64,000 bases of DNA from Ruditapes philippinarum. Its lineage: Eukaryota. The position numbers and the translations under genes were made by a program. Numbering within the stretch: position 1 is the first letter of the stretch; every line of letters begins with the position of its first letter. Below, one piece after another: positions 11,004-13,566 of the stretch. The stretch spans positions 62,001-126,000 of the forward strand of contig NW_026854510.1 in assembly GCF_026571515.1 (NCBI RefSeq), in the 5' to 3' direction. The notes beneath the pieces are model-generated. The model made no database searches. It saw nothing but the letters and a program-made list of their open reading frames with translations, and was not told where the DNA came from.

Positions 11004-13566
11004 TCAGCCATCCTCATCCCTGCTTTTGTTATTTACTGTGTTGTCAGTTACTACCCGAGTTGTCGATTCTGCCTTTATATCTAAACTTACAGAGGGTAAA
11101 GCGGTTGCTGTGACATTCATATTGTCTTCAATGTTCAATTCATCTGTTGTCGTAAACTCCTGATATTGTTGTTTATCAACACTGACATTTCCAGTTTCAT
11201 CACGTGGCTCGTCATCCTGGAAGATGTTGTTAGCACGATGGCCACTAGAACCAGCAATAACACACCGGAACGAGCAACATCTAAACTGACATGAATATCT
11301 GTCTCCCTTTTTATACTTGCAGTATGAATCTGTGTGACACTCCATCACTGGTCTGCAGTCGGTACAACTGAACATGGTAAAATCAAAACGCTTTGATCGT
11401 AGAAGATGAACCAATGAAAGGTGATTCCCGGGATCACGTGATTCAACAAGGCATTCTGATACCACTGAAAGATAAATTAACTTTTGATAAAATCCACAGT
11501 CCAAAATTTTTAATTATTCTTCGTAAACTTGCAGAATTGCAATGGTTTCTGGTTTGCAAGATATGTTAAATGAAGATGGTATATGTATGTTATAGAATAA
11601 GTCATAATTCATAGGACTTTTTATTTCTGTATTCATTAAATTATAGACATATCTGGTGATAAGCTATGTACTCTTTTCAAAGTTTCATATACAAAGAAAT
11701 AAGAAAAATAGATTATTAAGTTACTTCTCCCTCACACTCTCCCCCAACTCTCAGATCCAGTTTCTACCTTGCTTTTTTGCAGAGTGAGTACATACTTTGC
11801 GTAATCTTTATATATATAGAAAAATATTAGCATCCTATGTGGAAACAAACAAAACACAAAACAACATATATATCGTATGATCGTAAGTTCGGATTCTGCC
11901 TTTATAACGTTAATAACTAGAACTACTTTCAAGTACTTTGCAAATAATACTTCCTAAAACTGGGTCAATCTGATTTATGGTGGTTTTAAACAATTGACCT
12001 GATAATCGTAGTAGTACATTTATAGTAAATAAATGATCCGGTCATCAAGATTGCCACAATTTACGCCAGACAATGAACTGTATATCTTACCCCTCATTAT
12101 TTTTGCAATGCTTACATGCCATTTAGAGTTATTCTAACTGTTAATTCAAATGTACCGGTAGTATCTTTATATACATCGTATCATTGTATATACATGATAA
12201 AACATACATTTCTAAATATATATCTTTTAAAACAAAATAAATAGTAGTAATGCCATTCAATATGGAATTATAAGAGATGATCATGAGAAATTACATTAAA
12301 ATGTAACAGTTTATCTAAACTAAGCCTGGTGTTTAAATACTGTACAAGAAAAACAATTATTTTTAGCAAAACGTATATCAAAATATTTAAAAACAAAAAC
12401 AAAAAACGCACGTATAGCAACATCGGATTACATGCATTTCAGAAATTTCTGACATGATATAAAACATAAATTTATAAGGTAATAAAAGGATGTACTTAAA
12501 CATTTCACATCTATTGCAATATCTTATTATCCTTGTACCAACTGTACTATAAGCGAAACATTAAAGATTGTGATAAGAGATCACCCACGTATCTTAAACG
12601 CAACTTTGATCCTGAACAAACTTTTGATTACATTTCAATTGATTTTTTATTGTATTTTAATTGTTTCTTAGAGTTTATAATTGAATTCGAATTTCGTATG
12701 TCACTTATAACTTAAAGATGATTACTAGGTTTAAAATTAAATGAAATTTTTTATGCCAATATGTTTGCTAGAAATACGAATTTTGTTAATATACCTAAAT
12801 GAAACAATGAGGCGATTTTTACTGGACATATTTTATGCTGTTTGATATGTGTTGAAAAATATCCGCTTTTATTAAGAATTTATCTTTCATTCTTGTTGTC
12901 AAAAGTTAGCAGCACATTACTTTAAGAAATTTCTAAGTTTTCTAAATTGAATAATATGAAATAAATAAAGAAATAAATCTGAGAGAACTTTAAACATCGA
13001 CATTAAATATTTGATCGATTTATTGTTTGATTTTACTAGTAAAAAGTTAAACATTTTTTCAATTAAATAAAAAAATAAAAGGATTTTATTGCGGTTTTAA
13101 ATATAAAACGATTTTAGAAACAAAACAAGATACAGAAATTTTTACACGTCACAAAACATATGTTAAATTTTTACACAAACTTATTTCTTTTACCATAATT
13201 TTCAATATGCGGCGCAGATATCCATTTAGATCATAATAAATCTATTATAAATCACATACTAGTCCATATTCCTTTATTTAGAATAATTATTTAACATATT
13301 GTATTGCTTCGAAATACATTTAAAATAAATTTTAAACAAAGATCCTTCAACTAAAATGAAAATTAAAGATAATTCTTCTATGAAAACTATACAGCTTAAA
13401 TCGAGACGGCTAATTAATGAAAAAGCCCTATGACCATCAACCGTTAGATAGTCTCTTTTCATTTGTACTCCCTTAATTTGTAATTATTTCTCCCTGTTTT
13501 TTTTTAAATAATGTACCTACCGATATATGTAAGTAAAAGTTCCAATATCTGTATTGTTAACTTCAT
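11004..13566 (-). CDS. Secreted cysteine-rich peptide precursor, 2 exons (13566-13521, 11464-11004), 168 aa
   Basis: Exon 1 encodes MKLTIQILELLLTYI and ends at G|GTAGGT. Acceptor TTTCAG|TG gives a phase-1 join, total 507 nt. Product: signal peptide, short pro-segment, RSKR, then C-x2-C-x5-C-x5-C-x9-C-x3-CC-x3-C, then an acidic Thr/Asn-rich tail. Confidence 0.75.

What the first reader, a model, noticed from the sequence alone, without database searches (positions are those of the whole stretch)
11004..13566. Orphan secreted precursor with furin site, unusual 8-Cys framework and anionic tail
Seen: signal exon joined in phase to ...LVHLLRSKR|FDFTMFSCTDCRPVMECHTDSYCKYKKGDRYSCQFRCCSFRCV, followed by ~80 aa of D/E/T/N-rich tail. 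Established: RxKR is the furin/PC consensus, and bivalve defence peptides such as myticins and mytilins have 8 Cys and an anionic C-terminal pro-region. The spacing C-2-C-5-C-5-C-9-C-3-CC-3-C does not match CSalpha-beta, WAP or knottin patterns I recognise. Inference: a candidate new antimicrobial, toxin-like, protease-inhibitor or signalling peptide family.
Basis: partly seen in the sequence, partly recalled or inferred. Interest (0 to 1): 0.72.

Follow-up and report, generated by a model that had tools for sequence, protein, structure and literature searches.

The report
Undescribed clam cysteine-rich peptide family
Clams splice and transcribe a gene for a small eight-cysteine protein, predicted to be secreted and cut by furin so as to expose a short front end that is nearly unchanged across three clam families; it is likely a signal for an unknown receptor rather than a germ-killing peptide.

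Summary
The gene is real. The 13521/11464 intron is spliced in contigs of 7 of 8 runs laid. The 168-aa product equals RefSeq XP_060584169.1, uncharacterized, Ruditapes philippinarum. It is not an orphan: 8 proteins with the whole core were found, including Mercenaria, Mactra and Dreissena. All keep R|FD-x-x-MF-[GS]-C, eight Cys and C-x-x-D-x-x-C, while the acidic tails diverge. No Pfam or PDB sequence family matches. One copy was found in the genome. Core alleles are 5 of 5 synonymous against 0 of 7 in the tail, and core charge runs from -3 to +2. This is the opposite of the hypervariable multigene mussel defence peptides. The core model (pLDDT 77) resembles WAP domains only weakly (Z 3.3, E at least 1.2), and WAP spacing and profile tests fail. 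Best reading (0.45): a convertase-activated secreted ligand whose invariant N-terminus contacts a conserved partner. Rivals are a protease inhibitor, an immune effector and a matrix protein. No function was tested and the tissue is unknown.

The parts
13521..13727 (-). Exon 1: 161-base leader plus the first 46 coding bases (ATG at 13566); the 5' end is the furthest contig end, not a mapped start
11465..13520 (-). Single phase-1 GT..AG intron, 2056 bases
   Evidence: joint in 7 of 8 runs
11451..11464 (-). End of the predicted signal peptide (to residue 20, including Cys20); cleavage point inferred
   Evidence: hydropathy; coordinates
11388..11450 (-). Predicted propeptide (residues 21-41), ending in RSKR at 11399-11388
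   Evidence: R-x-[KR]-R in 7 of 8 family members, P1 Arg in 8 of 8
11364..11387 (-). N-terminal motif F-D-x-x-M-F-[GS]-C of the predicted mature peptide; F, D, M, F and C invariant
   Evidence: 8 of 8
11259..11387 (-). 8-Cys core, 43 aa, net +2; predicted short helix plus beta-hairpin
11004..11258 (-). Acidic, Ser/Thr-rich tail (84 aa, net -10, 3 sequons, no Cys, no hydrophobic segment) and stop codon
10316..11003 (-). 3' untranslated region covered by contigs; AATAAA starting at 10386

Best explanation
This is a spliced clam gene, found once in the genome, for a precursor predicted to be secreted and cut by a furin-type convertase after RSKR, which would expose a conserved F-D-x-x-M-F-[GS]-C end that likely binds a conserved host receptor as a hormone- or cytokine-like signal. 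Shown: gene structure, splicing, family, conservation pattern, constraint on the core. Inferred: secretion, cleavage, four disulfides holding a small helix-hairpin scaffold, the N-terminal segment as the recognition element, and the acidic tail as an unconstrained, probably glycosylated spacer or pro-piece that may or may not be removed. The receptor is unknown.
For: F1, D2, M5 and F6 of the mature peptide are invariant in 8 of 8 cores whose other non-Cys positions are as little as 31% alike. They directly follow an invariant Arg (R-x-[KR]-R in 7 of 8), so the cut position is fixed relative to the motif. That segment is the least ordered part of the model (pLDDT 52 for residues 1-10 against 76-90 for the rest), so its conservation is more simply explained by a binding partner than by folding (inference). 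Core identity to P0003 and Mercenaria P0004 is 38/43 and 36/43, against 29/84 and 25/84 in the tail. Alleles in 4 runs: core 5 synonymous and 0 replacement; tail 0 and 7 (Fisher p=0.0013; 5 of 5 synonymous has p about 2e-4 at the core's synonymous fraction). One copy was found by three own-genome searches. Core charge is -3 to +2 and not conserved.
Against: No receptor, tissue, peptide or activity data exist. An invariant N-terminus fits an enzyme-binding inhibitor just as well. The low pLDDT may reflect the shallow 8-row alignment. Myticins also have low charge (-2 to +4) and cytokine-like roles (PMC7356231, passages), so low charge does not separate immune from endocrine use. 4 of 8 members lack a clear hydrophobic leader (P0003, P0006, P0007, P0010); truncated gene calls are my inference. 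P0008 has only a single Arg at the site. No amidation signal or conserved second cleavage site frees the core from the tail. All named relatives lie in Neoheterodontei, narrower than most known neuropeptide families (my knowledge). Own-genome searches give lower bounds on copy number.
Confidence: 0.45

Rival explanations
1. Secreted protease inhibitor on a WAP-like scaffold. It would act either through a canonical loop between core Cys1 and Cys3, or, as in hirudin (recalled analogy), by inserting the hydrophobic N-terminus into an active site while the acidic tail binds a basic exosite.
For: SLPI and elafin are the top rows in Foldseek and VIA-align (TM 0.53-0.56; Z 3.0-3.3, rmsd 2.5-3.2 over 37-39 residues). 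The aligned ranges and the elafin sequence suggest that core C1, C3, C4, C5, C7, C8 fall on WAP C2, C3, C4, C5, C7, C8 (inferred). The C1-C3 gap is 8 in 6 of 8 members, the C2-C3 spacing of the inhibitory WAPs (PMC11408880, passages).
Against: Foldseek E is at least 1.2 and Z is 3.3 at most, within the range of common arrangements. The would-be reactive loop has a deletion in P0008 and an insertion in P0009, and carries an extra Cys. Profile comparison with clam WAP domains gives probability 10% over 12 columns. Tail sequence is not conserved.
Confidence: 0.2
2. Antimicrobial or immune effector peptide stored with an anionic pro-piece, in the manner of mytilins, myticins or CRP-I.
For: Signal + 8-Cys core + anionic tail matches the mytilin plan (PMC7168163, passages); tail net -10 or lower in 7 of 8. 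Signal + propeptide + dibasic site matches CRP-I (PMC10138031, passages). The model has a helix and hairpin, and plant defensins appear in Foldseek at E 2.5-4.6. Myticins are weakly charged too (PMC7356231).
Against: Mytilin and CRP-I arrays match 0 of 8 cores. Five of 8 cores are net negative. One copy was found and the core is under purifying selection, whereas myticins and CRP-I are multigene, hypervariable and positively selected in the mature region (PMC7356231, PMC10138031). Two exons here against four.
Confidence: 0.15
3. Shell, periostracum or mucus matrix glycoprotein: the acidic Ser/Thr-rich tail binds calcium or mineral and the Cys core docks it to the matrix.
For: The tail is always acidic or Ser/Thr-rich, with 2-8 sequons in 6 of 8 members, and there is no invariant site to remove it. 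Acidic low-complexity regions with small disulfide domains are common in mollusc shell proteins (my knowledge; one search lists such papers, listing only).
Against: Does not explain the fixed cut position and the invariant free N-terminus. Tail length (73-213 aa) and charge (-3 to -23) vary widely.
Confidence: 0.12
4. Toxin-like peptide acting on predators or parasites.
For: The precursor plan resembles venom peptides; Atlas row Toxin_9 at 0.78; scorpion toxins in Foldseek at E 5-9.
Against: Those scores are at chance level by the tools' own notes. The carriers are filter-feeding clams, one copy was found, and the mature region is conserved rather than diversified.
Confidence: 0.03

Closest known systems
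WAP / WFDC four-disulfide core (Pfam PF00095; elafin, SLPI, waprins)
   Same: About 43 residues, 8 Cys, C-x-x-D-x-x-C motif in 8 of 8, C-terminal hairpin; top but weak fold neighbours.
   Different: Spacing 2,5,5,9,3,0,3 against 8-11,3,5,5,0,3,3 in 14 of 14 clam WAP domains; about 2 bits or less against a clam WAP profile whose own members score 64-76 in the 13 rows printed; the locus is not among the 77 WAP matches in the genome; furin-exposed FDxxMF end.
Mytilins and myticins (mussel CS-alpha-beta defence peptides)
   Same: Signal, 8-Cys core, anionic C-terminal extension (PMC7168163); low core charge as in myticins (PMC7356231).
   Different: Different array, a propeptide before the core, two exons, one copy found, purifying selection.
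Mytilus CRP-I
   Same: Signal + propeptide + dibasic convertase site + Cys-rich mature region, function unknown (PMC10138031).
   Different: 8 rather than 6 Cys, long acidic tail, conserved rather than hypervariable mature region.
LEAP2 and prokineticin (recalled, not tested here)
   Same: Working analogy only: a conserved free hydrophobic N-terminus on a small disulfide scaffold acts at a GPCR; LEAP2 is released by furin.
   Different: No sequence relationship detected (PDB searches); different Cys numbers; vertebrate ligands.

Membership tests
WAP/WFDC (PF00095) | Eight Cys in 40-50 residues (PMC11408880) | tested here: met
   8 Cys in 42-45 aa in 8 of 8
WAP/WFDC (PF00095) | Cys spacing ending C-5-C-5-CC-3-C-3-C | tested here: not met
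   14 of 14 clam WAP domains have it; 0 of 8 cores match C-x-x-[DN]-x-x-C-5-CC (pattern recalled)
WAP/WFDC (PF00095) | Match to the family profile | tested here: not met
   No Pfam row; hhalign probability 10%, 12 columns; -4.8 to 2.2 bits against a clam WAP HMM
WAP/WFDC (PF00095) | WAP fold | tested here: inconclusive
   Z 3.0-3.3, rmsd 2.5-3.2, 37-39 aligned; Foldseek E 1.2 or more
WAP/WFDC (PF00095) | WAP disulfide connectivity | not testable with these tools
   Model coordinates are not returned; needs MS or NMR
Mytilin | C-3-C-3-C-4-C-11-C-1-C-1-C-2-C array (PMC7168163) | tested here: not met
   0 of 8
Mytilin | Cationic mature peptide | tested here: not met
   Net -3 to +2
Mytilin | Anionic C-terminal extension | tested here: met
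   Net -10 to -23 in 7 of 8, -3 in Dreissena
Mytilin / myticin | Four-exon gene | tested here: not met
   Two exons in the contigs laid; a further 5' exon is not excluded
Myticin | Hypervariable multigene mature region with positively selected sites (PMC7356231) | tested here: not met
   One copy found; 5 of 5 core alleles synonymous
Mytilin / myticin | CS-alpha-beta fold | tested here: inconclusive
   Helix 20-27 plus hairpin; defensins only at E 2.5 or more; C-x-C absent from the strands
CRP-I | Signal, propeptide and dibasic site | tested here: met
   KR or RR in 7 of 8; signal by hydropathy only
CRP-I | C-C-CC-C-C six-Cys array (PMC10138031) | tested here: not met
   0 of 8
Molluscan insulin-like peptide | B chain and A chain (CxCCxxxCx8C) split by a C-peptide (PMC5996578) | tested here: not met
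   All 8 Cys lie in one block with other spacing (one search read)
Buccalin / allatostatin A | Repeated short peptides ending GxL-amide (PMC5996578) | tested here: not met
   One peptide, no repeats, no such ending
Receptor ligand (functional class) | Activates or blocks a cognate receptor | not testable with these tools
   No candidate partner to model

The most novel reading that the evidence does not exclude
A clam-lineage peptide hormone or cytokine family with its own receptor, built on a rewired WAP-like scaffold: the WAP C1-C6 bond is replaced by a new C2-C6 bond, and a furin-unmasked FDxxMF N-terminus carries the message.
Probability: 0.3. Interest if true: 0.75.

Novelty: new variant of a known kind. 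Interest (0 to 1): 0.5.

Why it matters
Ligands that appear only within one bivalve lineage are missed by neuropeptide surveys based on homology. A 43-residue core with an invariant N-terminus can be made and tested directly, in farmed clams (Ruditapes, Mercenaria) and in the invasive zebra mussel Dreissena, where a lineage-restricted signalling pair would interest physiologists. The Cys framework also adds a candidate disulfide scaffold. If it proves to be a plain protease inhibitor or matrix protein, interest falls to about 0.3.

Tried and rejected
Pfam: no family for the window protein or the relatives scanned (P0002 and P0010 not scanned). PDB by sequence: one chance row, CXXC4 at E 2.7, and none with the profile. 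ESM Atlas: best 0.79 and 0.77, chance range; structure rows TM 0.36 or less. Full-length AlphaFold2 model unusable, pLDDT 37; not searched. Weak own-genome hits L003 and L004 (E 5.6, 6.1) score 9.7 and 5.1 bits against the core profile versus 81 for the gene; no paralogue in the window or in 10 kb on each side. No run is on record as RNA among the holders; X21 and X22 hold almost none of the words, which is no evidence either way. No named relative outside Neoheterodontei was found, but the index-free search used one sequence, the profile search needed shared words and lengths of 101-2000 aa, and 5 relatives are unnamed, so the range is open. Papers: no hit for the accessions or motifs, none for two topic searches; some searches gave listings only, none describing this peptide by title or abstract. 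Supplements of PMC8902148 and PMC9781830 held none of four terms, uninformative if they use other ids; the scallop neuropeptide supplements hold no MFGC or MFSC. Subscription papers and bioRxiv supplements were not visible. Seven replacement alleles in the tail are not evidence of positive selection (p=0.18). No complex was predicted, as there is no candidate partner. The scan's earlier findings returned nothing.

Full report
Observation. The minus strand carries a two-exon gene: 46 coding bases from ATG 13566 to a GT donor after 13521, then exon 2 from 11464 to the stop at 11004, joined in phase 1 to give 168 aa. The features reported are there: a hydrophobic leader, RSKR, Cys spacing 2,5,5,9,3,0,3 and an 84-aa tail with 17 D/E. 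The intron is skipped in contigs of 7 of 8 public runs laid; 6 of these have at least 31 letters on both sides and come from six studies. Contigs run from 13727 to about 10316. The runs are guessed RNA or of unknown kind, and contigs give no level or tissue. RefSeq XP_060584169.1 (LOC132740311, Ruditapes philippinarum, uncharacterized) is letter for letter the predicted product. Its contig has the length of the window's contig, so it likely comes from the same assembly and is not independent genomic support.

Family. Word-indexed and index-free searches gave eight relatives: P0002 (partial), P0003, Mercenaria P0004, Mactra P0006, Dreissena P0009, and unnamed P0007, P0008 and P0010. With the window's protein, 8 have the whole core; P0002 was left out of counts because it starts inside the core. 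Invariant in 8 of 8: the P1 Arg, F1, D2, M5, F6, eight Cys and the Asp of C-x-x-D-x-x-C. R-x-[KR]-R stands in 7 of 8. Non-Cys identity between distant cores falls to 31%. Tails are 73-213 aa, acidic or Ser/Thr-rich, with no hydrophobic segment. The three species looked up fall in Neoheterodontei, in Venerida and Myida (Mercenaria not looked up). Four of 8 lack a clear leader, which I attribute to truncated gene calls without having shown it.

Constraint. Against P0003 and P0004 the core is 88% and 84% identical, the last 11 propeptide residues 73% and 91%, and the tail 35% and 30%. Among 13 coding differences in four runs, the 5 in the core are all synonymous, the 7 in the tail all change a residue, and 1 changes a signal residue. 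Fisher p is 0.0013. The core result is unlikely under neutrality (about 2e-4) and the tail result is not (0.18). Three own-genome searches, one with the Dreissena core, found only this locus above chance level; such searches give lower bounds.

Structure. The full-length model failed (pLDDT 37). The 45-residue core with an 8-row alignment reached pLDDT 77, with helix 20-27, strands 31-36 and 39-44, and a poorly ordered first ten residues (52). WAP domains (SLPI, elafin, omwaprin, nawaprin) head all three fold searches but weakly: Foldseek E 1.2 or more, VIA Z 3.3 at most. Plant defensins and scorpion toxins follow at E 2.5-9. From the aligned ranges and the elafin sequence I infer that core C1, C3, C4, C5, C7 and C8 sit on WAP C2, C3, C4, C5, C7 and C8, leaving C2-C6 as a new bond; the coordinates could not be inspected. 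By sequence it is not a WAP. The genome holds at least 77 PF00095 matches and this locus is not one. Of the 20 loci fetched, 14 were aligned; their spacing differs in 14 of 14. The cores score -4.8 to 2.2 bits on their profile, with 4 to 193 of 200 Cys-preserving shuffles scoring as high. hhalign finds only the C-x-x-D-x-x-C motif at 10% probability.

Mechanism. Shown: a spliced, constrained gene family with a fixed Arg directly before an invariant F-D-x-x-M-F-[GS]-C. Inferred: secretion, convertase cleavage, disulfide folding, and that an invariant but flexible free N-terminus contacts a conserved partner. A receptor is the partner I think most likely (0.45), by analogy with LEAP2 and prokineticin (recalled). 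A protease is next (0.2): the C1-C3 gap of 8 in 6 of 8 members equals the inhibitory WAP spacing (PMC11408880, passages), but that loop takes indels. An immune effector (0.15) fits the anionic tail (PMC7168163, passages) and is not excluded by low charge, since myticins are weakly charged (PMC7356231, passages). It conflicts with the array, the exon number, the single copy found and purifying selection (PMC7356231, PMC10138031, passages). A matrix protein (0.12) fits the tail but not the fixed N-terminus. Toxin (0.03) has only chance-level support. About 0.05 is left for other roles.

Novelty. No Pfam, PDB-sequence or Atlas family matches. Nine paper searches found no description, within a library that lacks most subscription papers. 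Papers seen: passages of PMC7168163, PMC10138031, PMC11408880, PMC7356231 and PMC5996578; term searches in the supplements of PMC5996578, PMC8902148 and PMC9781830; listings and abstract starts for the rest. The precursor type is well known, while the family, framework and N-terminal motif appear undescribed. Verdict: a real, undescribed peptide family, a new variant of a known kind, interest 0.5, with function untested.

Noticed in passing
window 6378-6986 +: Open frame with a bHLH domain (PF00010, E 1e-16); looks achaete-scute-like (name recalled). Nearest upstream coding neighbour seen.
   Followed up: partly
window 20835-21590 + and 26974-27657 +: Two Tctex-1 family (dynein light chain) frames in tandem (PF03645).
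   Followed up: partly
window 34818-40190 - and 51090-53153 -: Very long Thr/Ser/Glu/Asn-rich open frames (1791 and 688 aa) with 300-base and 36-base tandem units; likely exons of a mucin-like gene; no Pfam match for the 688-aa frame.
   Followed up: partly
window 22280-23801: 42-base tandem array of 36 copies that keeps an open frame on the + strand for 307 codons; probably a minisatellite.
   Followed up: no
window about 8900-9150, 14550-14850, 18800-19100: Copies of a very abundant short repeat in both orientations, with huge summed contig depth; likely a non-autonomous mobile element.
   Followed up: no
L007 1519-2502 +: 328-aa open frame starting with a hydrophobic leader, just beyond the window end; not identified.
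   Followed up: no
G000 C9921 about 166000-191000; C7242; C2460: Large tandem arrays of WAP-domain exons; at least 77 WAP matches in the genome.
   Followed up: partly
P0007 and P0010: A sub-group with a two-residue insertion before the last core Cys and an extra Cys pair in the tail.
   Followed up: no
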